This document shows, piece after piece, positions 21,764-35,132 of a stretch of 64,000 bases of DNA. Made by a program: the position numbers and the translations under genes. The stretch is from Minisyncoccota bacterium. GTDB taxonomy: Bacteria > Patescibacteriota > Minisyncoccia > Phycocordibacterales > UBA9973. The stretch spans positions 27,097-91,096 of the forward strand of contig JBAYKD010000001.1 of the NCBI GenBank assembly GCA_041664745.1, written 5' to 3'. The number at the start of each line of letters is the position of its first letter. Positions within the stretch are counted from its first letter, which is position 1. The notes below the pieces were generated by a model. It worked only from the letters and a program-made list of their open reading frames with translations, made no database searches and had not been told where the DNA came from.

Positions 21764-22342
21764 ATGAACAAAAAGCATATTATTACGATTGCAGGTAAGC
21801 TTGGAAGTGGTAAATCTTCAACTGCTAAAATGGTTGCAGAAATTCTTGGGTATAAACATTATTCTACTGGTGATTTTTTTAGATCTATTGCAGACGAAAG
21901 AGGAATTTCTACTGTCGAATTAAATAAAGCTGCAGAAACAGATCTATCTATAGATAAAGAAGTAGACGATAGAAATATAGAAATAGGAAAGATGGAGAAT
22001 GTAGTGTTAGATTCACGTTTAGGTTTTCATTTTATCCCGGAATCTTTTAAAGTTTTTCTTGAGCTTAATCCAATAATCGCATCTCAAAGAATTTTGAATG
22101 ATAAAAAAAATAATTTAAATAGACATAATGAAACTAGCAGCGCTTTTGACACAGCTGAAAATATTTTAAATTCTATATCGGAAAGAATGCTATTAGAAAA
22201 AAATAGATATAAAGAATTGTATGGAATAAATGATAATACTTCTCATGATAATTTTGACTTAGTTATAGACACAGAAAAAATACCACTTGAAGATGTTTCT
22301 AAAAAAATTATAGAAGAATATAATAATTGGTTAAACAAATAA
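21764..22342 (+). CDS. cmk: cytidylate kinase-like P-loop kinase
   Basis: 192 aa. IITIAGKLGSGKSSTAKMVAEILGYKHYSTGDFFR. Confidence 0.8.
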   Translation: MNKKHIITIAGKLGSGKSSTAKMVAEILGYKHYSTGDFFRSIADERGISTVELNKAAETDLSIDKEVDDRNIEIGKMENVVLDSRLGFHFIPESFKVFLELNPIIASQRILNDKKNNLNRHNETSSAFDTAENILNSISERMLLEKNRYKELYGINDNTSHDNFDLVIDTEKIPLEDVSKKIIEEYNNWLNK

Positions 22343-22345
22343 TAT

Positions 22346-23743
22346 ATGAAAATATTAAGTGAATTATTAGAAGATGTAAAAATACTAGAGAGCCATGGAA
22401 ATCTCGAAGCTCTAGTTTCTTCGCCTTCACTTAATTCAAAAAATATTGAGCCGCATTCAGTTTTTGTAGCGCTTGCTGGGAATGTACTAGATGGGCACTC
22501 TTTTATAAATGAAGTTATAGAGAAAGGAGCAACAGCGATAGTTCACGAGAAAGATATAGAAGAATTTAAATCTGGTGTCACGTACATTAAAGTCGCAGAT
22601 ACTCACAGTGCTATAGGGATAATCACAAGTAATTTCTATGATAATCCATCTCGTAAATTGAAATTAATAGGAGTGACAGGAACTGCTGGTAAAACTACAA
22701 CTGCAACTTTACTGCACCAGCTTTTTAGAGATTTAGGTTATAAGGCTGGAATGATAGGTACTGTTGTAAATAAAATAAATGACACAGAAGAAGAAGCTCA
22801 TCGTACAACACCAGATGCTGTTACTTTAAACGAATTGCTTGCCAGAATGGTAGATGATGGTTGTATGTATTGCTTTATGGAAGTATCTTCTCACTCTGTT
22901 AGTGAAAAACGTATCTCGGGAATCTCTTTTTGGGGAGGAATATTTACTAATCTTACTCTTGATCATCTCGACTATCATAAAACAATGGATAATTATTGTG
23001 ATGCAAAGAAGGGCTTCTTTGATATTCTGCCAGCTACAGGTTTTGCTATCGCAAATATCGACGATGAAAGAGGCGAGTATATACTAAGTACTACAAAAGC
23101 TCATAAGTATACTTTGAGTTTAAAGAAAGAAGCAGATTTTAATGAGAGATTTGAATCAAAATTGATAGGAGAATTTAATGCTTATAACTTACTTGGTATT
23201 TATGCTGCTGCAGTTCTTCTTGGTGAAAGTAAAGAATATGTAAAAGAAAAAATAAAAAATCTTGAAGCGGTTCCAGGAAGATTTCAGTATTATAAATCAG
23301 AAAATGGAGTTACAGGTATTGTAGATTATGCACATAAACCAGATGCACTTTTAAATGTTTTAAAAACTGCAAATAATATGAAGGGTAAAGGTAAGCTTAT
23401 CGCTGCAGTAGGTTGTGGTGGAGATAGAGACAGAAGCAAGCGTCCTATAATGGCCAAGCTCGGTTATGATATGAGCGATATTCTTATACTTACGTCGGAT
23501 AATCCTCGTACTGAGAAACCCGAAGATATATTAGAGGAAATGAGTAAGGGTATAGAAGGGTTATCAGAAGATAAAGTTTATATTATAGAAGATAGACATG
23601 AAGCTATAAAGAAGGCTTGCTTCCTTGCTATGCCTGGTGACTTCATACTTATCGCTGGTAAAGGTCACGAAACTTATCAAGAAGTGAATGGAGTCACGAC
23701 TCACTTTGACGATATGGAGGAGCTAAAAAATAATCTTAAATAA
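22346..23743 (+). CDS. murE: UDP-N-acetylmuramoyl-L-alanyl-D-glutamate--2,6-diaminopimelate (or L-Lys) ligase
   Basis: 465 aa. GVTGTAGKTTT, DYAHKPDAL, SDNPRTE. Confidence 0.92.
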   Translation: MKILSELLEDVKILESHGNLEALVSSPSLNSKNIEPHSVFVALAGNVLDGHSFINEVIEKGATAIVHEKDIEEFKSGVTYIKVADTHSAIGIITSNFYDNPSRKLKLIGVTGTAGKTTTATLLHQLFRDLGYKAGMIGTVVNKINDTEEEAHRTTPDAVTLNELLARMVDDGCMYCFMEVSSHSVSEKRISGISFWGGIFTNLTLDHLDYHKTMDNYCDAKKGFFDILPATGFAIANIDDERGEYILSTTKAHKYTLSLKKEADFNERFESKLIGEFNAYNLLGIYAAAVLLGESKEYVKEKIKNLEAVPGRFQYYKSENGVTGIVDYAHKPDALLNVLKTANNMKGKGKLIAAVGCGGDRDRSKRPIMAKLGYDMSDILILTSDNPRTEKPEDILEEMSKGIEGLSEDKVYIIEDRHEAIKKACFLAMPGDFILIAGKGHETYQEVNGVTTHFDDMEELKNNLK

Positions 23744-25080
23744 TGCAAAATTATAAAAAACAATTTAAAGGGAAGAAGATTACAGTCATGGGACTGGGTC
23801 TTTTGGGGAGGGGGATTGGATATACAAAATTTTTGGCTGAATGTGGGGCGGATTTGATAGTCACGGATTTGAAGACGAAGAAACAGCTCGCGACGTCGCT
23901 TAAGGCACTTGAGAAATTTCCCAATATTAAATTTGTATTAGGTGAACATCGATTAGAAGATTTCAAGGATAGAGATATGATAATAAAGGCTGCAGGAGTA
24001 CCTTTTGATTCTATTTATATAAAAGAAGCTCAAAAAAATAATATTCCGGTTGAGATGGATGTATCGCTTTTTGCTAAGTGTGTGCCTGAAGTAATGATTA
24101 TAGGAGTGACTGGCACAAGAGGGAAATCTATGACTACGACTCTTATATATGAAATCCTTAAAGCAAATGAAAAGTTTTTGAAAAAGAATATATATATTGG
24201 GGGAAATCTTCGCGGAATTGCTACTTTGCCGTTACTTAAAAAAGTAAAAGATGGAGATATACTAGTTTGTGAACTTGATTCTTGGCAACTTCAAGGATTC
24301 GGCGAAGCAAAACTTTCTCCTTCTATTTCTGTCTTCACAACTTTCATGCCTGACCATATGAATTATTATAAAAATGATATGGATAAGTATTTTGGAGATA
24401 AATCAAATATTTTTAAATATCAAAAGAAAGATGATACATTAATAATCTTGTCAGATATGAAGAAATGGATAAAGAAAGAAGATGTAAAAGGCAAGTTAAT
24501 TGTTACTGATAAAAAAGAAGTTGATGTTTGGAAGTTTAATGTGAAAGGGGATCACCATAGAAACAACTTATCCTGTGCAGTAAAAGTTGCAGAAGTATTA
24601 GGAATTCCAGAAGCTAAAATTAAAAAAGTTGTTGCTAATTTTAAAGGATTAGAGGGACGCTTAGAATTTTTGAAGAGTTATAGGGGTATAAAAATCTATA
24701 ATGACAATAATGCTACGACTCCAGAAGCTACAATCGCTGGTATCGAAGCGCTAAAGACTAATAAGAAAAACATTGTGCTTATTTGCGGTGGAGCTGATAA
24801 GGGTCTCAACTTAGAAAATTTTGTAAAAACTGTAAATACTAACTGTAAGAGTGCAGTGATGATTCCGGGAACGGGAACAGAAAGACTAATTAAGAATTAT
24901 GAAATTAAAATTAAGAATGAAGTTGGAAGAGATTTGAAAGGCATAGTAAAGAGTGCTTTGTCTCAGGCGAAGAAGGGAGATGTAATTCTTTTCTCCCCGG
25001 CATTTGCTTCGTTTGGAATGTTTAATAATGAATATGAACGAAATGATTTATTTATGAAGATAATTAAGAAGTTAAAATAA
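23743..25080 (+). CDS. murD: UDP-N-acetylmuramoylalanine--D-glutamate ligase
   Basis: 445 aa. N-terminal Rossmann KKITVMGLGLLGRG, GVTGTRGKS, NDNNATTPEAT. Confidence 0.92.
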   Translation: MQNYKKQFKGKKITVMGLGLLGRGIGYTKFLAECGADLIVTDLKTKKQLATSLKALEKFPNIKFVLGEHRLEDFKDRDMIIKAAGVPFDSIYIKEAQKNNIPVEMDVSLFAKCVPEVMIIGVTGTRGKSMTTTLIYEILKANEKFLKKNIYIGGNLRGIATLPLLKKVKDGDILVCELDSWQLQGFGEAKLSPSISVFTTFMPDHMNYYKNDMDKYFGDKSNIFKYQKKDDTLIILSDMKKWIKKEDVKGKLIVTDKKEVDVWKFNVKGDHHRNNLSCAVKVAEVLGIPEAKIKKVVANFKGLEGRLEFLKSYRGIKIYNDNNATTPEATIAGIEALKTNKKNIVLICGGADKGLNLENFVKTVNTNCKSAVMIPGTGTERLIKNYEIKIKNEVGRDLKGIVKSALSQAKKGDVILFSPAFASFGMFNNEYERNDLFMKIIKKLK

Positions 25081-25083
25081 TTT

Positions 25084-25593
25084 ATGTATAAAAAAGTAAT
25101 TATCATCGGTGGAGGAGGATCAGGCAAATCATCTTTAGCAGATAGGATGGGGAAGTATACTGGTTACCCTGTGTACCATTTAGATAATTTACTTTTGGAT
25201 TCAAATTGGCAACAAAAGCCTAAAAATCAATGGGAAGAAATTAGCCAGGTATTTTTAACGAAAGATGCTGGAATTGTGGATGGAAATTATTCAAGCTCTA
25301 TACCAAACAGAGTAAAATGGGCCGATGTAATTATTTATATTGATATACCGACCCACGTTCAGCTTTGGCGTATTACACGTAGATATATAAGGAATAAACT
25401 TGGACTAGACAAAAGATGTGGTTTTCCAGATGGTTCAAAGGAAAAAATTGGCATGAAATTTATTCTATGGACATATCACTGGAATTCTAACCATAGAGAA
25501 AAACTACTCTCAATGTTAGACTTAGAAAAAGATAAAAAAGTTTTAATTATAAAAGAAGCAAGGAGTTTAGACATTAAAAGTTTATTTGAATAA
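25084..25593 (+). CDS. P-loop NTPase, adenylate-kinase-like (FlaR / topology-modulation type)
   Basis: 169 aa. IIIGGGGSGKSSLADRMG..PVYHLDNLLL..NW. Confidence 0.75.
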   Translation: MYKKVIIIGGGGSGKSSLADRMGKYTGYPVYHLDNLLLDSNWQQKPKNQWEEISQVFLTKDAGIVDGNYSSSIPNRVKWADVIIYIDIPTHVQLWRITRRYIRNKLGLDKRCGFPDGSKEKIGMKFILWTYHWNSNHREKLLSMLDLEKDKKVLIIKEARSLDIKSLFE

Positions 25594-25597
25594 AATT

Positions 25598-25801
25598 ATG
25601 AAAAAAGAAATTGAAAAAAAATATACAAAAAAGCAAACTATTAAAATATTGGAAAGATTAGTAAGGTCTCTAAATAATGGAAAACCTTTTAAAATGCAAA
25701 TAAAAGGTAAGAAAGTTTATCTTCCTAAGGAATCTGAAATTGAAATAGAATATGAAAAGGAGAAAAATGAAGAAAAAATAGAAATAGAAATTAAGTGGTA
25801 A
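25598..25801 (+). CDS. small acidic protein, amphi-Trp-domain-like
   Basis: 67 aa ending ..EIEIEYEKEKNEEKIEIEIKW. The ATG at 25598 is preferred over the TTG at 25586. Confidence 0.55.
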   Translation: MKKEIEKKYTKKQTIKILERLVRSLNNGKPFKMQIKGKKVYLPKESEIEIEYEKEKNEEKIEIEIKW

Positions 25802-25810
25802 AATAAATAT

Positions 25811-26443
25811 ATGAAATACAATAAAAATTTAAAAGATACATACAATAGAATCGCCGAAGATTGGCATAAAGATCATCAATCAGATGATTGGTGGTATGAA
25901 GGTACTGATAAATTTATTTCTTATTTTAAAAAAGGAGATAGTATTTTAGATGTAGGATGTGGGTGTGGTACAAAAAGTAAATATCTTATTGATAAAGGAT
26001 TAAATGTGACAGGTATAGATTTTTCAGAAAATTTTATAAATATAGCCAAAAAAGAAGTAATTGGTGGAGAATTTTTAGTTATGGATATAAATGACACAAA
26101 TAAATTGGAGAAAACTTTTGATGGAATATTTATACAGGCTGTATTATTACATATTCCTAAGAATGAAGTTGAGAGTCTTTTAAAAGAAATTATAAAAAAA
26201 TTGAAAGTCGGTGGTTATTTATATGTTGCTGTTAAAGAAAAAAAAGAAGGGGGAGTAGATGAAGAAATTAAAAAAGAAAATGATTATGGCTATGAATATG
26301 AAAGATTTTTTAGTTATTTTACTTTAGATGAAATTAAAAATTATTTTAAAAACATAGGGTTAAAAGTAATTTTTGAGAATGAAGCACCACCAAGTAGGGC
26401 CACAAGAAAAACTAATTGGATACAAGTAATTGGTAAAAAATAA
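25811..26443 (+). CDS. class I SAM-dependent methyltransferase
   Basis: 210 aa. Motif I ILDVGCGCGTKS; later GGYLYVAV. Confidence 0.85.
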   Translation: MKYNKNLKDTYNRIAEDWHKDHQSDDWWYEGTDKFISYFKKGDSILDVGCGCGTKSKYLIDKGLNVTGIDFSENFINIAKKEVIGGEFLVMDINDTNKLEKTFDGIFIQAVLLHIPKNEVESLLKEIIKKLKVGGYLYVAVKEKKEGGVDEEIKKENDYGYEYERFFSYFTLDEIKNYFKNIGLKVIFENEAPPSRATRKTNWIQVIGKK

Positions 26444-26447
26444 ATAT

Positions 26448-27074
26448 ATGAAATTAATATTATCATCAGATGGTAGTTTTCTACTGAAATATGGTTATGA
26501 GCAAACTGGTATATCTAAAGATCAGATGAGGATTGGATATATTACAACTGCATCAAAAAAAGCTCGAAATAAAGATTTTATGGAAAATTTTAAAATCTCA
26601 ATAGAGAAAGAAAAATATAATTTTGAAGAAATAGATATTGAAGGTAAAACAGAAATAGAATTAAGAGAATTTTTTAAAGATAAAAATGTAATACACATAG
26701 AAGGAGGAAATACTTTTTATTTATTAAAAATAATAAGAGAAACAGGTTTTGCTGTAATTTTAAAAGATTTAATTAATGAAGGGAAAGTTTATATAGGAAC
26801 TAGTGCTGGTTCATATATTACTTGTCCTAATATAGAAGTATCAGATTGGGATAAAACAGGAAGAGATAGGTTTGGTATAACAGATTTTACTGCTTTAGCT
26901 TTGGTGCCTTTTGTTTTAAAAGTTCATTATAAAGATGAACAAGAGATAGAGACCAGAGAAAATAGTAAGTTATTAAAATATCCAATTAGAATATTACGGG
27001 ATGGACAAGGTATAATCGTGGAAGATGGTAAATATACATTTATGGGTGATGGAGAAGAAGTAATATTAAATTAA
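26448..27074 (+). CDS. peptidase E-like (S51 family / class I glutamine amidotransferase-like)
   Basis: GGNTFYLL and GTSAGS motifs. The ATG at 26448 is preferred over the overlapping track start at 26430. Confidence 0.8.
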   Translation: MKLILSSDGSFLLKYGYEQTGISKDQMRIGYITTASKKARNKDFMENFKISIEKEKYNFEEIDIEGKTEIELREFFKDKNVIHIEGGNTFYLLKIIRETGFAVILKDLINEGKVYIGTSAGSYITCPNIEVSDWDKTGRDRFGITDFTALALVPFVLKVHYKDEQEIETRENSKLLKYPIRILRDGQGIIVEDGKYTFMGDGEEVILN

Positions 27075-27086
27075 TAAAATAATTTT

Positions 27087-27326
27087 ATGAAAAAATTAGA
27101 AATCGGGGCAATATATAAGCATTACAAGGGGACCAAAGCGAAAGTTATTGGGGAGTGCTTTCACAGTGAGACACAAGAACCGATGGTTATTTATATACAT
27201 TTAGAAGATGGAGTCTCTTGGGCTCGTCCAAAAGAGATGTTTTTAGAGAATGTTATAATAGACGGTAAGGAAGTAGAAAGATTTGAAAAAGTTGAACAAG
27301 AAATATTAATTAAACCAAGTAAATAA
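27087..27326 (+). CDS. DUF1653 family protein
   Basis: 79 aa. YKHYKGTKAKVIGECFHSETQEPMVIY...WARPKEMF matches the family pattern from memory. Confidence 0.8.
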   Translation: MKKLEIGAIYKHYKGTKAKVIGECFHSETQEPMVIYIHLEDGVSWARPKEMFLENVIIDGKEVERFEKVEQEILIKPSK

Positions 27327-27776
27327 ATGCAAAAATTTGAAGATTTAATAAATAAAAATAAATATCAGGTTTTTGTATTTTGTTGCCCTGCGTATTTCCC
27401 ATTTAATTATTTTAGGCATCCTTGGTTTGTATTAAATAAAAAAGGAGAAATATCAAGATGGGAAATACGACATTATATAAATAAAAAAACTCTTGATTAT
27501 TTATTTTTAAATCAACAGATGCCATTTGAGGGAACTAATATGACTTATTTAATAAATAAAAAATGGAACGCAAGTCTTTTGGGTTCTATAGAAGACGATG
27601 TTGCAGTAAAAGCAATAGATTTTATTGAAAATTCTCCCAAAAATTATCCTTATTGTAAAAAGTATTCTTATGTGGGTCCTAATAGTAATACATATGTTCA
27701 AATGGTTTTAAACAAATTTCCAAAGTTTAATATTAAATTATCTAACCGGTTTATAGGAAAGGATTTTCATGTATAA
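27327..27776 (+). CDS. hypothetical protein (possibly DUF3750-like)
   Basis: 149-aa ORF abutting the previous stop codon. RHPWFVLNKKGEISRWEI. The family assignment is uncertain. Confidence 0.6.
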   Translation: MQKFEDLINKNKYQVFVFCCPAYFPFNYFRHPWFVLNKKGEISRWEIRHYINKKTLDYLFLNQQMPFEGTNMTYLINKKWNASLLGSIEDDVAVKAIDFIENSPKNYPYCKKYSYVGPNSNTYVQMVLNKFPKFNIKLSNRFIGKDFHV

Positions 27777-27777
27777 T
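27770..27777 (+). promoter_or_regulatory. -10 box TG-TATAAT overlapping the preceding stop codon, 8 nt before the murC ATG
   Basis: TATAAT at 27772-27777. Confidence 0.45.
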
Positions 27778-27785
27778 AAGAATAT

Positions 27786-29120
27786 ATGACAGAACTTGAT
27801 TTAAAGACAATTAAAAACGTTCATTTTATAGGAATCGGAGGGATTGGAATCTCGGCGGTGGCTAGGATGATGCTTCATGATGGGAAGAAAGTGAGCGGGC
27901 AGGATATGCAAGGTGGGGAAATAGTAGAGGAACTTATAAAGCTAGGTATAGATATTAAAATAGGTCAGTCTTATGAGAATATACCAGAAGATACTGATTT
28001 GATAGTCTATACTATTGCTATAGATACTTACGATAAAGAACTTGCAGATAAGATAAAAGCTCAAGATATTGTGCCTGTCCGTTCATATCCACAAATGTTG
28101 GATATTATAAGTCGTGATAAATATACGATTGCAGTATCAGGAACTCATGGCAAGACGACAACGACAGCAATGATCGCACAGATATTAGGTGAAGATGGGG
28201 AAGACCCTTCTGTCATAGTTGGAAGTTTAATTAAAAATAAAGATGGCACTCGTTCTAACTTTATATATGGTAAAAGTAAATATCTAGTGGTAGAAGCATG
28301 TGAATACAGAAGATCATTTTTAAATATTAATCCGAAAGTTCTAGTTATTACAAATATAGATGAAGATCATCTTGATTATTACAAAGATATAGAAGATATA
28401 AAAAATGCATTCCATGAGATGGCAATGAAAGTACCTACCGATGGATTTGTTGTTTGTAATCCAAATGATAAAAATATTGCTGATGTAACAAAAGATATAA
28501 AAGCAAAAGTTATAAATTGGGAAGAATTTTATAATAGTGAATTGAAGTTAAAAATTCCAGGAATTCATAATAAGAAGGATGCAGCGGCGGCTATAGCCGC
28601 CGCTGCCACTTTGGAAATTTCCAAAGAAGTAGCAGAGAAATATGTTGTGAATTTCCCAGGTACATGGCGACGATTTGAATTCAAAGGGAAGCTCTCAAAT
28701 GGAGTTTTTATTTACGATGATTACGCTCACCATCCCGTAGAAATTACTTCTACACTCGAAGGCTTTAGAGAATTGTACTCTAAGGCGGACGGATGGAAAT
28801 TAACAATAGTCTTTCAACCTCATTTATTTAGTCGTACAAAATTACTTTTAAACGACTTTGCACAAAGTTTCAAAGATGCAGACAAGGTTTTAATTCTACC
28901 AATTTATTACGCAAGAGAAGTTGATGATGGGACTATTTCCTCAAATGTCTTAATGAGTGAGATAAATAAATACTCGAACAATGGAGAGGCCTTTTCCTCT
29001 TTTGAAGAATTAGAGAAATATCTAGAATTAGGGCTCTCTCATATGGGGGAAAAGGATATAATAGTGACTATGGGCGCTGGGGAAGCCTTTAAGGTTGGGG
29101 ACTTCCTTTTAAAAAATTAA
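27786..29120 (+). CDS. murC: UDP-N-acetylmuramate--L-alanine ligase
   Basis: 444 aa. HFIGIGGIGISAVARMM, SGTHGKTTTTAMIA, DDYAHHP. Confidence 0.94.
   Translation: MTELDLKTIKNVHFIGIGGIGISAVARMMLHDGKKVSGQDMQGGEIVEELIKLGIDIKIGQSYENIPEDTDLIVYTIAIDTYDKELADKIKAQDIVPVRSYPQMLDIISRDKYTIAVSGTHGKTTTTAMIAQILGEDGEDPSVIVGSLIKNKDGTRSNFIYGKSKYLVVEACEYRRSFLNINPKVLVITNIDEDHLDYYKDIEDIKNAFHEMAMKVPTDGFVVCNPNDKNIADVTKDIKAKVINWEEFYNSELKLKIPGIHNKKDAAAAIAAAATLEISKEVAEKYVVNFPGTWRRFEFKGKLSNGVFIYDDYAHHPVEITSTLEGFRELYSKADGWKLTIVFQPHLFSRTKLLLNDFAQSFKDADKVLILPIYYAREVDDGTISSNVLMSEINKYSNNGEAFSSFEELEKYLELGLSHMGEKDIIVTMGAGEAFKVGDFLLKN
28581..28606. repeat. perfect 26-nt GC-rich palindrome inside murC (GCAGCGGCGGCTA TAGCCGCCGCTGC)
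   Basis: Encodes AAAAIAAAA in the HN..A.AA.A region of MurC. Confidence 0.7.
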
Positions 29121-29122
29121 TA

Positions 29123-29872
29123 ATGATATATAATGTATATATGGAAAACAACAACAAATTTTTAATGTTTTTAAATACGAGAATATTTATTGCGATAGGA
29201 ATTGTAGCGGCAGCATTTATAGGAGCTTACGCTTTTTATCAAATTCGTTCTCTTGATAATACTTTGACAGTTACAGGCAGTACTACAAAACAAGTAACCT
29301 CAGACCACGTAAAATGGGTCGGGGCTATAAATCGTGTAGTGAAAGCAAGTACACTCAAGACTGGTTATGCTGATATGGCAAGTGATTTAGTATTTGTGAA
29401 AGAATTTTTAAAGAGTAAAAATATTCCAGATAATCAAATAGTTATTTCTCCTATTTTTATGGATCAAAATTATGATGGGCCACAAGGTGGAGAGAGGAGT
29501 TATACTCTTCGTCAAACTATAGATATCAATTCTTCTGATGTGGATGCCATTGGAGAAGTAGCCAAGAATGTACAACCACTTATAGAAAAAGGTGTAATTT
29601 TCTCAACTCAATCTCTTGAATTCACTTATTCAAAACTTCCAGAGGAACGTGTCTCAATGTTAGCCGATGCAGTCAAGGACGCGCAAGCACGTGCCATGAG
29701 CCTAGCTCAATCAAGTGGTAAAGTTGTAGGACAATTGAAAAGTGCAACTTCTGGTGTAGTTCAGGTGATGTCTGCCAATTCAACAGATGTAAGTGACTAT
29801 GGATCTTATGATACTTCAAAAATAGAGAAGAATATCATGATGACTGTCAAAGCTTCATTTACTCTAAAATAA
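29123..29872 (+). CDS. SIMPL domain (DUF541) protein
   Basis: 249 aa. N-terminal TM; AVKDAQARAMSLAQSSGKVVGQLKS. An alternative ATG lies at 29141. Confidence 0.75.
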   Translation: MIYNVYMENNNKFLMFLNTRIFIAIGIVAAAFIGAYAFYQIRSLDNTLTVTGSTTKQVTSDHVKWVGAINRVVKASTLKTGYADMASDLVFVKEFLKSKNIPDNQIVISPIFMDQNYDGPQGGERSYTLRQTIDINSSDVDAIGEVAKNVQPLIEKGVIFSTQSLEFTYSKLPEERVSMLADAVKDAQARAMSLAQSSGKVVGQLKSATSGVVQVMSANSTDVSDYGSYDTSKIEKNIMMTVKASFTLK

Positions 29873-32743: not shown

Positions 32744-33208
32744 ATGGAAGAAACAAATTATATAACAGAGGAGAAGAAACATGCATTACAAGAAGAACTT
32801 AAGCATTTAAAAACCTTTAAAAGAAAGGAAATTTTGGAATCTTTGGAAGCCGCTAAGGCTTTAGGGGATTTGTCTGAAAACGCTGAATATCATCAAGCTC
32901 GTGAAGATCAAGGTAAAACAGAAGATCGTATTAATCAGATTGAATACATGCTTCAGTCTTCAGTCGTAGTGAAAAAGCACCAGAGTTCAAAAGTTGAGAT
33001 AGGAACAACTGTAGTAGTAAATAAAGAAGGGAATAAGGATCATGTTACTTATAGTATTGTCGGAGCTGAAGAAGCAGATATGACCCATAATAAAATTTCA
33101 AATAAATCACCTCTTGGTGAAGCACTCTTTGGCAAGAAGAAAGGAGACGTTGTTTCTATTAAAACTCCCAAGGGACTAGCCAAATACACTCTAATTGATA
33201 TACAATAG
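32744..33208 (+). CDS. greA: transcription elongation factor GreA
   Basis: 154 aa. GDLSENAEYHQAREDQG and the C-terminal S..SPLGEALFGKKKGD. Confidence 0.93.
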   Translation: MEETNYITEEKKHALQEELKHLKTFKRKEILESLEAAKALGDLSENAEYHQAREDQGKTEDRINQIEYMLQSSVVVKKHQSSKVEIGTTVVVNKEGNKDHVTYSIVGAEEADMTHNKISNKSPLGEALFGKKKGDVVSIKTPKGLAKYTLIDIQ

Positions 33209-33212
33209 GGAT

Positions 33213-35132
33213 ATGGCATCTATTGAAGAATTACGCATTGCGCGATTTACTAAAATTACTAAATTAAAAGAAGCGGGTATGGATCCGTATCCTCCTTCTG
33301 TTAAACGCGATTACTCAATTAAATATGTTAAAGCTCTCTTTGAAGATCTTGCCCCCCAATCGGAGGACAAGAATATTTCTATTGCTGGTAGAGTAATAGT
33401 TGTGCGAGGTCAGGGGTCTATTTTATTTATAGTATTACAGGATGGAAATGAGAGATTCCAAGCTGTGCTTAAAAAGGATTCCCTAGAAGAAAAATTATTT
33501 AATCTATTTGTTGATACTGTTGACAGTGGAGATTTTATTTCTGTAACTGGTTCATTATTTATTACACAAAGAGGGGAACAAAGTATTTTGATAAAAGATT
33601 GGCAAATGGCTACAAAGGCTCTACTCCCGTTGCCTGATAAATGGCACGGATTGCAAGACATAGAAGAGATTTATCGAAAGAGATACCTTGATGTACTTAT
33701 GGATCAAGAGACTTACAATCGTTTCGTGATTCGTTCACAAGTTATAAAGTATATACGTGAATTTCTAGATAATAAAAATTTCTTAGAAGTTGAAACTCCG
33801 ATTTTGCAGAACGAAGCCGGAGGTGCCATGGCGAAAGTTTTTGAGACGCATCACAATGACTATGATATGCCTATGGTTCTTCGTATTGCTCTCGAGCTTG
33901 AGCACAAAATGCTTATGGTAGGTGGATACGAAAGAGTTTATGAAATAGGTAAAACTTTTAGAAATGAAGGATCAGACCCTACACACCTTCAAGAATTTAC
34001 AATGCTTGAATGGTACGCTGCATATCAAACGCTTGAGACGAATATGGAATGGACTGAGGAGCTTATAAAATCCATTGCCAAAGATTTAATGGGTAAGACA
34101 GTTTTTAAAGTTTATGATAATGATGGTAATGGAGTCGATGTAGATGTTGCTGTGGCTTGGGAGAGGATCACTTTTGGTGAATTACTAAAACGTGATGCAG
34201 GTATAGACATCGAAACTATAACCGAAGAGGATGCCAGGGCACAAGCTATCAAATGGGGAGTAAAAGAAGACGAAGCTAAAAAATTAGGAAGAGGCAATCT
34301 ACTTGATAAAATTTATAAAAAATGTTCAAGGAGGAAAATTATCAACCCAACCTTTATTACAGATTTCCCAGGAGACTTAAAACCTCTAGCTCAACAAAAT
34401 TCAAATGGAACTGCAAGAGTTTGCCAACTAATAATTGCAGGAGCTGAGATTACGAATCAATATGCGGAACTTGTAAATCCTGTGATTCAGAGAGAGTTAC
34501 TTGTGTCTCAAGGTAAAGCAAAAGAAAATGGAGATGAAGAAGCTATGGGTGTGAATGAAGGATTTATAACTGCTATGGAGCATGGTATGCCACCGATGAC
34601 AGGATTCGGAATGGGTATTGATCGCTTGGTGGCAATATTTACCGAGCAGAAGAATCTTCGTGATGTGATTTTCTTTCCCATAATGAAACCGAAGGAGAAT
34701 ATACAAGAATCTAAAGAAACAATGGTTGCGGTTGCAGTATTAAATACAGGAATTTCTCTTCTACCTTGGCAAGAATTAAATACAATAGCTCACTTGAATG
34801 CAGCTTTTGGAGCCAGAGTTGGTAAGAATTTATTCTCTCAAGATACAATAGAATCAAAAGATAATCATAAAATAAAATTGAATATTAAAAATGCAATAAT
34901 GATTAAAAAAGTAGACAGCTCAGATAAATTGAAGGTTTTGGCACTTGAAGCAAAAGGAAAAGAACTAGAGGTAGATGAATTTACTCGAGAAATGATTGAA
35001 ACAACGAATGACAAAAAAGTTGTTTCGATTACTTTGTCTAAAGATTTTAAAGATATTGAGTACCTAGGAGTATTAATTTATGGACCTAAAAATATTGTTG
35101 ATAATTTAACTTCAGAACTAGAAATGTATTAA
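33213..35132 (+). CDS. lysS: lysyl-tRNA synthetase (class II) fused to a C-terminal DUF2000-like domain
   Basis: 639 aa from the ATG at 33213 (MASIEEL). Class II motifs FRNEG, GGAMA, GFGMGIDRL. About 146 extra residues follow ..FFPIMKP. Confidence 0.9.
   Translation: MASIEELRIARFTKITKLKEAGMDPYPPSVKRDYSIKYVKALFEDLAPQSEDKNISIAGRVIVVRGQGSILFIVLQDGNERFQAVLKKDSLEEKLFNLFVDTVDSGDFISVTGSLFITQRGEQSILIKDWQMATKALLPLPDKWHGLQDIEEIYRKRYLDVLMDQETYNRFVIRSQVIKYIREFLDNKNFLEVETPILQNEAGGAMAKVFETHHNDYDMPMVLRIALELEHKMLMVGGYERVYEIGKTFRNEGSDPTHLQEFTMLEWYAAYQTLETNMEWTEELIKSIAKDLMGKTVFKVYDNDGNGVDVDVAVAWERITFGELLKRDAGIDIETITEEDARAQAIKWGVKEDEAKKLGRGNLLDKIYKKCSRRKIINPTFITDFPGDLKPLAQQNSNGTARVCQLIIAGAEITNQYAELVNPVIQRELLVSQGKAKENGDEEAMGVNEGFITAMEHGMPPMTGFGMGIDRLVAIFTEQKNLRDVIFFPIMKPKENIQESKETMVAVAVLNTGISLLPWQELNTIAHLNAAFGARVGKNLFSQDTIESKDNHKIKLNIKNAIMIKKVDSSDKLKVLALEAKGKELEVDEFTREMIETTNDKKVVSITLSKDFKDIEYLGVLIYGPKNIVDNLTSELEMY
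34614..34692 (+). repeat. direct repeat copy 1 (inside lysS)
   Basis: 77/79 nt identical to 35885-35963. Confidence 0.9.

What the first reader, a model, noticed from the sequence alone, without database searches (positions are those of the whole stretch)
25084..27776. Six-gene accessory block wedged between murD and murC
Seen: six small genes lie between murD (ends 25080) and murC (starts 27786), tightly packed on the same strand with gaps of -8 to +12 nt. They are an adenylate-kinase-like P-loop NTPase, an amphi-Trp-like acidic mini-protein, a SAM methyltransferase, a peptidase E/S51-like protein, a DUF1653 protein and a DUF3750-like protein. The block looks even more AT-rich than the mur genes. 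murC has its own TATAAT box (27772-27777) overlapping the last accessory stop codon. Known: in canonical dcw clusters murD is followed by ftsW-murG-murC; none of these six families belongs to cell-wall synthesis. Inference: this is an insertion of a co-transcribed accessory module into a cell-wall operon. Its function is unknown; candidates include nucleotide/small-molecule modification, a stress function or a defence-type function.
Basis: partly seen in the sequence, partly recalled or inferred. Interest (0 to 1): 0.55.

Follow-up and report, generated by a model that had tools for sequence, protein, structure and literature searches.

The report
Variable gene slot between murD and murC
The six small genes between the cell-wall genes murD and murC are real, but they are one genome's filling of a slot that related Candidatus Nomurabacteria fill with different, shuffled sets of small enzyme genes or leave empty, so they are not a six-gene system.

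Summary
Observation confirmed. The "co-transcribed accessory module" reading is only partly supported. The window is a Candidatus Nomurabacteria (Patescibacteria/CPR) contig. In 63 related species the interval runs from 4 nt (genes adjacent in 21) to 7.4 kb. It holds about 31 small-protein families in many combinations and orders, and 96% of the ORFs share the mur orientation. No relative has all six genes. None of the window's five internal gene neighbour pairs recurs among the 63; only g4-g5 recurs, in one extra fragment. The nearest relatives read g1-g3-hydrolase-g6 and hydrolase-g2-g5-g3-HD. There is no integrase, transposase, attC-size spacer or meaningful defence-system hit. All six genes are under purifying selection (dN/dS 0.06-0.18). 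A sharp identity break inside murE and very divergent murE-murD-g1-g2 (dS 0.7-1.3, against 0.3-0.55 elsewhere) point to turnover by homologous recombination, plus cassette gain or loss at stereotyped stop-start junctions. Verdict: a lineage-wide gene-flux hotspot inside a cell-wall gene run; six unrelated hitchhiker genes; moderate interest.

The parts
21764..22342 (+). cytidylate-kinase-like P-loop kinase, first gene of the co-directional run. This position is also exchangeable: the nearest relative L141 has an unrelated ADK-family kinase here.
   Evidence: Pfam Cytidylate_kin2/AAA_17; L141 has PF00406 ADK, 22% aa identity.
22346..23743 (+). murE (left backbone). It holds a recombination breakpoint near codon 100.
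   Evidence: Mur ligase domains. Identity to L141 is 93-94% nt in codons 1-100, then 69-80%; dS 1.26.
23743..25080 (+). murD, left flank of the variable slot.
   Evidence: TIGR01087 murD, 314 bits against a cutoff of 212. dS 1.1-1.46 to the nearest relatives, against a background of 0.3-0.55.
25084..25593 (+). g1: FlaR-like / adenylate-kinase-fold P-loop NTPase (Walker A GGGGSGKS).
   Evidence: NF005994 1e-38, below cutoff. Homologues sit in the slot of 6 loci in the set, the window's own copy included; dN/dS 0.12.
25598..25801 (+). g2: amphi-Trp mini-protein (67 aa from the ATG; the ORF opens at TTG 25586).
   Evidence: TIGR04354, 46.8 bits above the cutoff of 31. Mean identity about 80% across slot copies, against about 70% for MurD. 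dN/dS 0.075 and dS 1.0 to L146.
25811..26443 (+). g3: class I SAM-dependent methyltransferase of the small-molecule type (motif I: ILDVGCGCG).
   Evidence: Methyltransf_25/11/23, about 1e-17. 93% nt identity to L141 and 90% to L146; dN/dS 0.11-0.13.
25800..25817 (+). left copy of an exact 18-nt direct repeat, AAAATAAATATATGAAAT, spanning the g2 stop and the g3 start.
   Evidence: the repeat finder family D20. Six matches at up to 3 mismatches against 1.5 expected; 0 of 100 shuffles reach six.
26437..26454 (+). right copy of the same 18-nt repeat, spanning the g3 stop and the g4 start. Together the two copies bracket the g3 cassette.
   Evidence: L141 has near-identical junction sequences on both sides of g3.
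26448..27074 (+). g4: peptidase family S51 (PepE-like; nucleophile elbow GTSAGS and a His aligned with solved homologues).
   Evidence: PF03575 7e-31. PDB 3l4e 2.6e-16, with the alignment shown. 65-77% identical across many Patescibacteria. dN/dS 0.17.
27087..27326 (+). g5: DUF1653, a small SH3/Tudor-like beta-barrel. It is a long-standing neighbour of the mur cluster.
   Evidence: PF07866 3e-20. AF2 pLDDT 92; matches 3be3 with TM 0.75. Found within 10 kb of murD in 43 of 92 loci, in several positions. GC at backbone level.
27327..27776 (+). g6: DUF3750, a permuted papain-like fold with Ser in place of the catalytic Cys (invariant H31 and S120 in PNSNT).
   Evidence: PF12570 2e-16. Alignment A1. 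AF2 pLDDT 95. Best PDB matches TseH (prob 0.99, TMq 0.53) and CLN5. Classified as papain-like in PMC10318531.
27786..29120 (+). murC, right flank of the variable slot.
   Evidence: TIGR01082, 401 bits against a cutoff of 335.
29123..29872 (+). SIMPL/DUF541 gene, itself variable. It occupies the next junction (murC|hyp279) in only some relatives.
   Evidence: PF04402. The murC-hyp279 gap exceeds 300 nt in 7 of 29 relatives. Absent in L141.

Best explanation
The block is this genome's current content of a lineage-wide variable slot between murD and murC in Candidatus Nomurabacteria/Paceibacteria.

What the genes are. The six genes are functionally independent, selectively maintained small cytosolic proteins:
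- g1: a FlaR-like nucleotide kinase/NTPase.
- g2: an amphi-Trp mini-protein.
- g3: a small-molecule SAM methyltransferase.
- g4: an S51 dipeptidase-type hydrolase.
- g5: a DUF1653 beta-barrel.
- g6: a Ser-variant papain-like hydrolase.
They belong to a pool of at least 31 mostly house-keeping or house-cleaning type families that also includes NUDIX, alpha/beta-hydrolases, a HAD-like family, LMW phosphatase, Ham1, PgeF, MurI and DHH.

How they are probably expressed (inferred). They ride on read-through transcription of the long co-directional mur gene run. The evidence is gaps of 0-12 nt, no terminator-like site, and 96% co-orientation of slot ORFs in relatives.

How the content turns over.
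(i) Homologous recombination tracts anchored in the conserved mur genes and in shared cassettes. The mosaic is shown: there is an identity break inside murE, and murE-murD-g1-g2 is hyper-divergent against g3/g6 and the background. The direction of the event is inferred.
(ii) Cassette-precise deletion, insertion or reordering at stereotyped stop-start junctions (...AAA TAA, 0-12 nt, ATG AAA...), which supply 10-18 nt of microhomology. This step is inferred, from the exact 18-nt repeat bracketing g3 and from the pattern g3-C0-g6 / C0-g4-g5 / g3-g4-g5-g6 among close relatives.

It is not a six-gene system, not a mobile element and not a defence island.
For: Slot variability against control junctions:
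- murD|murC gap: 4-7403 nt; 21 of 63 at 150 nt or less, 38 of 63 above 300 nt.
- cmk|murE: 26 of 26 at 116 nt or less.
- SIMPL|hyp279: 7 of 7 at 29 nt or less.
- hyp279|PBP2: always 278-481 nt.

Content and order:
- 119 slot ORFs fall into 31 clusters, annotated. None is an integrase or transposase.
- 28 of 47 recurrent family pairs occur in both orders, no window adjacency recurs, and 108 of 113 ORFs are co-oriented.
- More slots with other fillings appear.
- S51 sits in unrelated contexts in other CPR classes.

Composition: slot GC is below that of murD+murC in 38 of 38 occupied relatives, mean -6.3 points, p = 7e-12.

Selection: dN/dS is 0.06-0.18 for all six genes.

Recombination:
- dS is 1.26 for murE, 1.10-1.46 for murD, 1.0 for g2 and 0.74 for g1. 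It is 0.26-0.42 for g3, 0.35 for g6, and 0.28-0.54 for tsaD, hyp279, hyp93, PBP2 and greA.
- Identity drops sharply at about codon 100 of murE.
- murD is 74-79% nt identical while shared cassettes are about 90%, in all three pairwise comparisons.
- MurE and MurC identities are bimodal, with 10 of 66 discordant combinations.

Junctions:
- An exact 18-nt repeat brackets g3.
- Slot ORFs end in AAATAA in 46% of cases against 17% for other ORFs, and are followed by an ATG within 12 nt in 63% against 40%.

No defence signal. No flanking long repeats. No tRNA nearby.
Against: - Co-transcription is untested; the promoter and terminator scans are uninformative in this AT-rich DNA.
- The relatives are one genome per species, with MurD 62-87% identical. 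Some of the variability is therefore long-term gene-order drift and not a specially active site, and only about 20 kb per genome was seen, so 'absent from the slot' is not 'absent from the genome'.
- The junction-motif enrichment is confounded by the lower GC of slot genes and by spurious ORFs in the control set. The generic K-stop/Met-Lys context could yield the 18-nt repeat without any recombination role.
- Some pool members (PgeF, MurI, perhaps S51 and the papain-like g6) could have real links to peptidoglycan-precursor metabolism, so the genes may not be pure hitchhikers.
- All the sequences are metagenome assemblies, and mosaic identity profiles can in principle arise from strain-chimeric assembly in a relative (L141).
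Confidence: 0.7

Rival explanations
1. The six genes form one functional, co-inherited accessory module (a pathway for nucleotide or small-molecule modification, stress or defence) inserted as a unit into the mur operon.
For: Tight same-strand packing with 0-12 nt gaps. The block is distinctly low in GC. All six genes are under purifying selection.
Against: No relative has the six together. No window adjacency recurs among the 63 species, and family pairs occur in both orders. The closest relatives differ by single cassettes. GC is uneven inside the block. dS differs about fourfold between g2 (1.0) and g3 (0.26-0.42), so the genes do not share one history. PADLOC gives nothing but a generic methyltransferase hit.
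Confidence: 0.04
2. The slot is a cassette array serviced by a dedicated mobile-DNA machinery. This would be integron-like, or driven by the transposase that mobilises the roughly 110-nt inverted-repeat element seen at gene starts in relatives, with the stop-start junction motif as its recombination or target site.
For: Combinatorial, co-oriented, promoterless-looking cassettes. An exact 18-nt repeat brackets g3. The junction motif is enriched in slot ORFs. In 13 related loci, a repeated 105-113-nt element with terminal inverted repeats ends directly against an ATG, often at slot junctions and once inside the 3' end of murD.
Against: No integrase or transposase was found among the ORFs scanned in the window, which did not cover every ORF, or among the slot families annotated in relatives. 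Spacers of 0-12 nt leave no room for attC-type sites. The inverted-repeat element is absent from the whole 64-kb window (nhmmer, E up to 1). The mosaic divergence is what ordinary homologous recombination produces.
Confidence: 0.1
3. Pure differential loss: an ancestral Nomurabacteria genome carried a long array of these genes between murD and murC, and present-day differences are deletions during genome reduction, with no gain or exchange.
For: Among the closest relatives the patterns fit single losses from g1-(g2)-g3-C0-g4-g5-g6. Cassette identities are in the same range as MurD identities. All homologues of g1-g4 seen within 10 kb of murD lie in the slot.
Against: 28 of 47 recurrent family pairs occur in both orders. 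g3 and g5 are inverted in order between the window and L146, L005 and L016. Cassette identity correlates only weakly with MurD identity (Spearman 0.08-0.54). dS is heterogeneous along the array. There are 15 singleton families.
Confidence: 0.12
4. Functional linkage: slot genes are selected to be co-expressed with the Mur ligases because they service the same metabolism. Examples would be nucleotide-sugar or precursor house-cleaning and amino-acid or dipeptide supply for the stem peptide.
For: The pool includes PgeF/YfiH (PF02578) and a glutamate racemase-type gene (PF01177), together with NUDIX, Ham1 and phosphatases. By established knowledge, PgeF/YfiH edits mis-charged UDP-MurNAc-peptides and MurI supplies the D-Glu used by MurD. 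g4 is a dipeptidase-family enzyme. g6 has a fold shared with peptidoglycan hydrolases such as TseH. DUF1653 stays near the mur genes in 43 of 92 loci.
Against: Most pool families have no known tie to peptidoglycan. 21 of 63 genomes have an empty slot. S51 homologues in other CPR classes sit in unrelated contexts. Nothing here was tested biochemically.
Confidence: 0.2

Closest known systems
Chromosomal hotspots of gene flux between conserved core genes
   Same: The same pair of core genes flanks different accessory content in different genomes. There is no recognisable mobile element. The flanks show signs of homologous recombination. The accessory genes are more AT-rich than the core genes.
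   Different: The slot lies inside a tightly packed, essential cell-wall gene run. The cassettes are almost all co-oriented, with 0-12 nt spacing and no promoters or terminators of their own. The content is small housekeeping-type enzymes, not defence, phage or surface-polysaccharide genes. The comparison is across species and genera of a CPR lineage, not across strains.
Integron gene-cassette arrays
   Same: Promoterless, co-oriented, single-gene cassettes in combinatorial order, dependent on an upstream promoter.
   Different: No IntI integrase, no attI, and no attC sites (spacers are 0-12 nt). The array sits between two essential genes of one operon-like run.
Canonical dcw (division and cell wall) cluster
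   Same: murE, murD and murC lie on one strand in the conserved relative order. mraZ-rsmH-ftsL-ftsI-murF is nearby.
   Different: The cluster is split. mraY, ftsW and murG are not between murD and murC in this genome or in any of the 63 relatives with both flanks. Unrelated genes (SIMPL, greA, lysS) are interleaved.
Correia-like or MITE-type intergenic repeats (for the side observation in relatives)
   Same: About 110 nt long, with terminal inverted repeats and a long-hairpin potential, present in multiple copies per genome at gene boundaries.
   Different: It always abuts an ATG start codon. It is not found in this window. No cognate transposase has been identified. It is not in Rfam at gathering threshold.

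Membership tests
Gene-flux hotspot between core genes | The same flanking core gene pair holds different intervening gene content in related genomes. | tested here: met
   The murD|murC gap is 4-7403 nt in 63 species and holds 31 families.
Gene-flux hotspot between core genes | Variability is concentrated at this junction compared with neighbouring junctions. | tested here: met
   cmk|murE is tight in 26 of 26, SIMPL|hyp279 in 7 of 7, and hyp279|PBP2 is constant. Only murE|murD (24 of 75 occupied) and murC|hyp279 (7 of 29) also vary.
Gene-flux hotspot between core genes | Evidence of recombination in the flanks. | tested here: met
   Identity breaks at about codon 100 of murE. dS is 1.1-1.5 for murE/murD against a background of 0.3-0.55. 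No formal recombination test was run.
Integron cassette array | IntI tyrosine recombinase and attI next to the array. | tested here: not met
   The ORFs scanned with Pfam, which cover most but not all of the large ORFs of the window, include no recombinase. The genes flanking the array are murD and murC.
Integron cassette array | attC recombination sites (imperfect inverted repeats of about 55-140 nt) after each cassette. | tested here: not met
   Intergenic gaps are 0-12 nt. No structured repeats were found in the block.
Genomic island or mobile element insertion | Integrase or transposase, flanking direct repeats or a tRNA target, and unit-like inheritance. | tested here: not met
   No such genes. 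The nearest tRNAs are at 17.1 kb and 41.5 kb. The only repeat is the 18-nt junction motif around g3. The content is inherited piecemeal.
Genomic island or mobile element insertion | Atypical base composition. | tested here: met
   27.1% against 34.0% GC. The same offset holds in 38 of 38 relatives, so it marks the gene pool and not one recent event.
Anti-phage defence system or island | Proteins matching known defence-system models in a system-like combination. | tested here: not met
   PADLOC: g3 hits only the methyltransferase domain of mad2 (1.7e-21). The only other match is a below-noise hit for g1 (VakA, E 0.006, 15 bits); g2, g4, g5 and g6 have no hit.
Canonical dcw cluster order murD-ftsW-murG-murC | ftsW and murG lie between murD and murC. 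| tested here: not met
   Neither is present in the window interval or in any related slot.
Peptidase family S51 (g4) | Pfam PF03575 above the gathering score, with the Ser nucleophile elbow and His conserved. | tested here: met
   107.9 bits against a cutoff of 23.9. GTSAGS and the His align with 3l4e. The acidic third residue was not checked. Below the PepE equivalog cutoff (62.7 against 156), so substrate specificity is unassigned.
DUF3750, papain-like Ser variant (g6) | PF12570 above the gathering score, conserved Ser in place of Cys plus His, and a papain-like fold. | tested here: met
   61.5 bits against a cutoff of 25. H31 and S120 are invariant. The fold matches TseH and CLN5 at modest TM, 0.43-0.53. 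Family classification from PMC10318531.
DUF1653 (g5) | PF07866 above the gathering score, with the fold of PDB 3be3. | tested here: met
   73 bits against a cutoff of 23.5. TM 0.75 and rmsd 2.4 to 3be3.
amphi-Trp domain (g2) | TIGR04354 or PF20068 above cutoff, with a C-terminal Trp. | tested here: met
   46.8 bits against 31, and 28.0 against 27. The protein ends ...IEIKW.
FlaR-type 'DNA topology modulation protein' (g1) | NF005994 or NF005576 equivalog score. | tested here: not met
   133 and 91 bits against cutoffs of 215 and 224. It is a homologue with a P-loop, not an equivalog.
Co-transcribed operon with the mur genes | A single transcript spanning murD, the block and murC. | not testable with these tools
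   Only indirect support: 0-12 nt gaps, the same strand, and no terminator-like site.

The most novel reading that the evidence does not exclude
Nomurabacteria would possess an integrase-less cassette system. In it, stereotyped stop-start junctions (AAA-TAA, 0-12 nt, ATG-AAA) act as recombination or target sites, so that single promoterless genes can be excised, inserted and reordered in frame with an essential, constitutively expressed operon. The same machinery might place the roughly 110-nt inverted-repeat element precisely in front of ATG codons, including inside the 3' end of murD. That would be a new route to operon-embedded gene shuffling in ultra-small genomes.
Probability: 0.1. Interest if true: 0.75.

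Novelty: new member of a known kind. Interest (0 to 1): 0.38.

Why it matters
The result changes how this block should be annotated and interpreted. The six genes should not be treated as a pathway, a defence system or a cell-wall module; guilt-by-association with the mur genes is unsafe here.

It also documents something useful for CPR biology. Even in roughly 1-Mb reduced genomes, an essential peptidoglycan gene run holds a recurrent slot where small accessory enzymes are swapped, apparently expressed by hitch-hiking on the operon. The flanking mur ligase genes themselves are exchanged between lineages by recombination.

If the junction-motif mechanism were real, it would be a simple, recombinase-free way of shuffling genes inside operons. 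The slot also gives a compact catalogue of the small-enzyme accessory pool of Nomurabacteria, including highly conserved unknowns (amphi-Trp, DUF1653, DUF3750) that merit biochemical study.

Tried and rejected
1. Defence island: the PADLOC scan of the six proteins gave only a generic methyltransferase-domain hit. Rejected.
2. Integron or genomic island: no recombinase among the ORFs scanned, no attC-size spacers, and no flanking repeats beyond the 18-nt junction motif. Rejected for the window.
3. murC's own promoter: the TATAAT exists, but promoter-like hits are at chance level (61 against 59.5). Uninformative.
4. Structured RNAs: Rfam finds only four tRNAs in the window, none near the block.
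5. Closer relatives in metagenome contigs, using MurC as query: nothing closer than the genome set. The informative close relatives came instead from exact-protein look-ups of g6, g4 and g5 homologues.
6. The roughly 110-nt inverted-repeat element of relatives was searched in the window with an nhmmer profile and is absent. It is not a known Rfam family at gathering threshold.
7. First reading, 'cassettes are younger than the core' (93% against 79% nt identity): rejected after the dS analysis. g3 and g6 match the genome background, and it is murE and murD that are anomalously divergent.
8. PDB sequence searches for g1, g5 and g6 gave no informative hits. The fold searches were needed.
9. Other pool families (Ser hydrolase, NUDIX and others) elsewhere in the 64-kb window: none found. 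The rest of the genome was not available.
10. Literature: no prior description of this slot was found. Among the six families, only the DUF3750 classification was retrieved.

Full report
**1. What is in the sequence**

One search confirms the layout on the + strand: murE 22346-23743, murD 23743-25080, six ORFs, then murC 27786-29120. Searches confirm the flanks: murD matches TIGR01087 at 314 bits against a cutoff of 212, and murC matches TIGR01082 at 401 bits against 335.

- g1 (25084-25593) is a P-loop NTPase. Its nearest model is the FlaR-type 'DNA topology modulation protein' NF005994, at 1e-38 but below the equivalog cutoff.
- g2 is an amphi-Trp mini-protein.
- g3 is a class I SAM methyltransferase.
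- g4 is a Peptidase_S51 protein.
- g5 is DUF1653.
- g6 is DUF3750.

With the ATG starts used by the public gene calls (g2 at 25598, g4 at 26448) the gaps are +3, +4, +9, +4, +12, 0 and +9 nt.

The block has 27.1% GC against a window mean of 34.0% (sd 2.1), and it is the lowest-GC 2.7 kb of the 64 kb. The signal comes from g2, g3, g4 and g6 (21-26%); g1 and g5 are at backbone level.

The TATAAT in front of murC exists, but promoter-like matches are at chance frequency (61 found, 59.5 expected). No terminator-like site lies on the + strand within the block.

Independent assemblies carry identical sequence.

**2. Organism and wider context**

The window is part of a 281-kb metagenomic contig. Its closest relatives are Candidatus Nomurabacteria/Paceibacteria MAGs.

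Genes run co-directionally from 21.7 to 48 kb. The order is cmk-like, murE, murD, the block, murC, SIMPL, two unknown genes, PBP2, greA and lysS. After a further unknown gene and an untranslated gap come mraZ-rsmH-ftsL-ftsI-murF. The dcw cluster is therefore already split and interleaved in this lineage. murD-ftsW-murG-murC is not the local reference state.

**3. Synteny in relatives**

I fetched 80 murD loci, one per species, with MurD 62-87% identical, and located the backbone genes by tblastn.
- The murD|murC gap ranges from 4 to 7403 nt. It is 150 nt or less in 21 of 63 loci and above 300 nt in 38 of 63.
- Control junctions are fixed. cmk|murE is tight in 26 of 26, SIMPL|hyp279 in 7 of 7, and hyp279|PBP2 always spans one small gene.
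- Two other junctions vary: murE|murD (24 of 75 occupied) and murC|hyp279 (7 of 29, by SIMPL).

The 119 ORFs found in the slots fall into 31 clusters. Apart from the window's six, these include the following:
- a YdeN-type serine hydrolase (20 loci) and NUDIX (14 loci);
- an unassigned roughly 130-200-aa family and an S33/S9-type alpha/beta-hydrolase;
- PgeF/YfiH, LMW phosphatase, GT2 and DHH/DHHA2;
- a glutamate-racemase-type gene, inositol monophosphatase and EEP;
- DUF218, Ham1, GDSL lipase and AAA_33.

None is an integrase or transposase. In the relatives, 108 of 113 slot ORFs share the mur orientation.

**4. Module or not**

- No relative has all six families. The most is four (L033, among 14 genes) and then three (L005).
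- None of the window's five internal adjacencies recurs among the 63 species.
- 28 of 47 family pairs that co-occur at least twice are seen in both orders.
- Exact-protein look-ups found closer relatives. L141/L142 read murD-[g1, g3, Ser-hydrolase C0, g6]-murC. L146 reads murD-[C0, g2, g5, g3, HD]-murC. The fragment L145 carries C0-g4-g5.
- Further fillings appear.
- In Kuenenbacteria, Moranbacteria and another CPR contig, the 67-68% identical S51 homologue lies in unrelated contexts.

The six genes are therefore not a co-inherited unit. They are what currently sits in a variable slot specific to this lineage.

**5. Composition**

In all 38 relatives with an occupied slot, the slot is more AT-rich than murD+murC (mean -6.3 points, Wilcoxon p = 7e-12). 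Low GC is a standing property of this accessory pool. It is not evidence for one recent foreign insertion.

**6. Are the genes functional?**

dN/dS against the nearest homologues is 0.12 (g1), 0.075 (g2), 0.11-0.13 (g3), 0.17 (g4), 0.06-0.10 (g5) and 0.18 (g6).

The expected motifs are present:
- g1 has the Walker A motif GGGGSGKS, and g3 has the SAM motif I ILDVGCGCG.
- g4 has the S51 nucleophile elbow GTSAGS and a His that align to PDB 3l4e.
- g6 has invariant H31 and S120 within PNSNT.

The g6 model (pLDDT 95) best matches the permuted papain-like hydrolases TseH (prob 0.99, TMq 0.53) and CLN5. This agrees with the published classification of DUF3750 as a papain-like family with Ser in place of Cys (PMC10318531).

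The g5 model (pLDDT 92) matches the DUF1653 crystal structure 3be3 (TM 0.75). It matches SH3/Tudor-like barrels such as the CarD, PcrA and Mfd polymerase-interacting domains more weakly. The last point is only a lead.

DUF1653 lies within 10 kb of murD in 43 of 92 loci. In 17 it lies after murD (in the slot where murC is also on the contig), in 10 immediately upstream of murE, and in 13 further upstream. It also has backbone-like GC. It therefore looks like an old companion of the mur cluster, not a newcomer.

**7. How the slot changes**

Against L141/L142 the background synonymous divergence is 0.28-0.54 (tsaD, hyp279, hyp93, PBP2, greA). g3 (0.26) and g6 (0.35) fit that range. murE (1.26) and murD (1.10) are far more divergent, with g1 (0.74) and murC (0.80) intermediate.

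Along murE, nucleotide identity falls from 93-94% in codons 1-100 to 69-80% afterwards. It stays low through murD and g1 and returns to 90-95% in g3. g2, compared with L146, also has dS 1.0.

In all three pairwise comparisons of the window, L141 and L146, murD is 74-79% identical while the shared cassettes are about 90%.

Across the wider set, MurD identity is unimodal but MurE and MurC identities are bimodal, with 10 of 66 discordant combinations.

The simplest reading is repeated homologous-recombination import of divergent murE-murD segments. Here the right-hand end lies at the g2|g3 junction, so such tracts can carry neighbouring cassettes (g1, g2) with them. Which genome is the recombinant was not resolved.

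**8. Junctions**

An exact 18-nt direct repeat, AAAATAAATATATGAAAT, spans the g2|g3 and g3|g4 boundaries and so brackets g3. At up to 3 mismatches there are six matches against 1.5 expected, and 0 of 100 shuffles reach six; apart from the two exact copies, at least two of the others (27076, 44532) also lie at gene junctions. L141 has near-identical junctions on both sides of its g3.

Slot ORFs in relatives end in AAA-TAA in 46% of cases against 17% for other ORFs. They are followed by an ATG within 12 nt in 63% against 40%. The lower GC of slot genes and spurious ORFs in the control set confound this comparison.

The close-relative patterns (g3-C0-g6, C0-g4-g5, g3-g4-g5-g6) fit precise single-cassette loss between such junctions. 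I therefore infer, but have not shown, that these stereotyped stop-start junctions provide microhomology for cassette-precise deletion, insertion or reordering that keeps the operon intact.

**9. Rivals**

- A coherent six-gene module is essentially excluded (sections 4 and 7).
- A dedicated mobile machinery (integron-like or MITE-associated) lacks any recombinase, attC-size spacer or element copy in the window. It stays the most novel reading not excluded.
- Loss-only evolution is contradicted by the order inversions and the heterogeneous dS.
- Some functional tie to peptidoglycan-precursor metabolism is plausible for a few pool members (PgeF, MurI, perhaps S51 and the papain-like g6). It is untested and cannot explain the empty slots in a third of the genomes.

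**10. Comparison with known systems, and verdict**

In behaviour the locus matches the well-known class of gene-flux hotspots between conserved core genes. It differs in three ways:
- it is embedded in an essential, tightly packed cell-wall gene run;
- it holds almost exclusively co-oriented, zero-spaced single-gene cassettes of housekeeping-type enzymes;
- it lies in a CPR lineage.

It fails the defining tests for integrons, genomic islands and defence systems. I found no earlier description of this slot.

Novelty: a new member of a known kind. Interest is moderate at 0.38. The residual upside is the unproven junction-mediated shuffling idea.

Noticed in passing
Relatives only: L005 4704-4813 and 14060-14171; L014 13601-13707, 14225-14336 and 3640-3744(-); L018 8377-8487; L030 2612-2721(-); L032 7771-7883(-); L095 8332-8442 and 8649-8761; others: A repeated element of about 105-113 nt with terminal inverted repeats (AC[CT]TGTCCCGTACTAAATTT ... 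AAATTTTAGTAC(T)GGG). It folds into a long hairpin (z -2 to -4.3) and almost always ends directly against the ATG of the next gene, often at slot junctions. It is absent from the 64-kb window (nhmmer, E up to 1) and is not an Rfam family at gathering threshold. It may be a MITE or Correia-like element, or a promoter/5'-UTR module.
   Followed up: partly
L046 10223-10345, L058 9004-9125, L081 9154-9275: In three species the same element sits inside the 3' end of murD. The reading frame runs ...LF, then into the element (TCPVLNF-stop). The displaced last eight murD codons (MK[LI][IV]K[KNG]LK-stop) follow the element intact. This is either an insertion that truncates MurD or something stranger; it was not resolved.
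   Followed up: partly
murE|murD junction; empty in the window (23743); occupied in L003, L005, L006, L010, L019, L023, L030, L033-L035, L038, L042, L043, L046, L050, L059, L075, L076: A second variable slot. 18 of the 24 occupied relatives (24 of 75 in all) carry one to three tandem copies of a 552-603-aa protein with no Pfam family above threshold (only a faint DUF5817 or zf_Tbcl hit) between murE and murD. The other six occupied intervals hold smaller ORFs or none.
   Followed up: partly
window 22346-25593, compared with L141 2788-6121: murE (from about codon 100), murD and g1 are far more divergent from the nearest relatives (dS 0.7-1.5) than the surrounding genes (0.3-0.55). Essential Mur ligase genes seem to be replaced by divergent alleles through recombination. 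MurE and MurC identities across 66 loci are bimodal, with 10 discordant combinations.
   Followed up: partly
window 21764-22342, compared with L141 2186-2785: The kinase gene upstream of murE is cytidylate-kinase-like in the window but an ADK-family adenylate kinase in the nearest relative (22% aa identity). This is a non-orthologous replacement at a fixed position.
   Followed up: no
window 29123-29872: The SIMPL/DUF541 gene after murC is itself an optional cassette. It is missing in L141 and in most relatives; the murC|hyp279 gap exceeds 300 nt in only 7 of 29.
   Followed up: partly
window 25598-25801 and homologues in L005, L006, L023, L029, L060, L143, L144, L146: The 67-aa amphi-Trp mini-protein is more conserved across species (mean about 80% identity) than MurD (about 70%), with 7 of 15 pairs more than 10 points above MurD. 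It is a strongly constrained small protein of unknown function.
   Followed up: no
L136 189-2081 (Ga0172380_10123066): The MurC match covers residues 4-333 at 81% identity but spans 1893 nt instead of about 990. This suggests an insertion of roughly 900 nt (intein, intron or other element) inside murC in that metagenome contig.
   Followed up: no
window 33195-35132: The lysyl-tRNA synthetase (tRNA-synt_2 plus the anticodon OB domain) carries a C-terminal DUF2000 domain (1e-16), an unusual fusion.
   Followed up: no
window 28581-28606 (inside murC): A perfect GC-rich 11-bp-stem palindrome, GCAGCGGCGGCTATAGCCGCCGCTGC, lies in the murC coding sequence (encoding AAAAIAAAA). It stands out in a 34% GC genome, and the terminator scan flagged it on the minus strand.
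   Followed up: no
L140 6001-6624 and 9934-10548: A Moranbacteria contig carries two S51 paralogues 3 kb apart, next to NUDIX, CYTH and an AAA_15/DUF4276 pair. Small hydrolase genes of the same pool cluster there too, but not at the mur genes.
   Followed up: no
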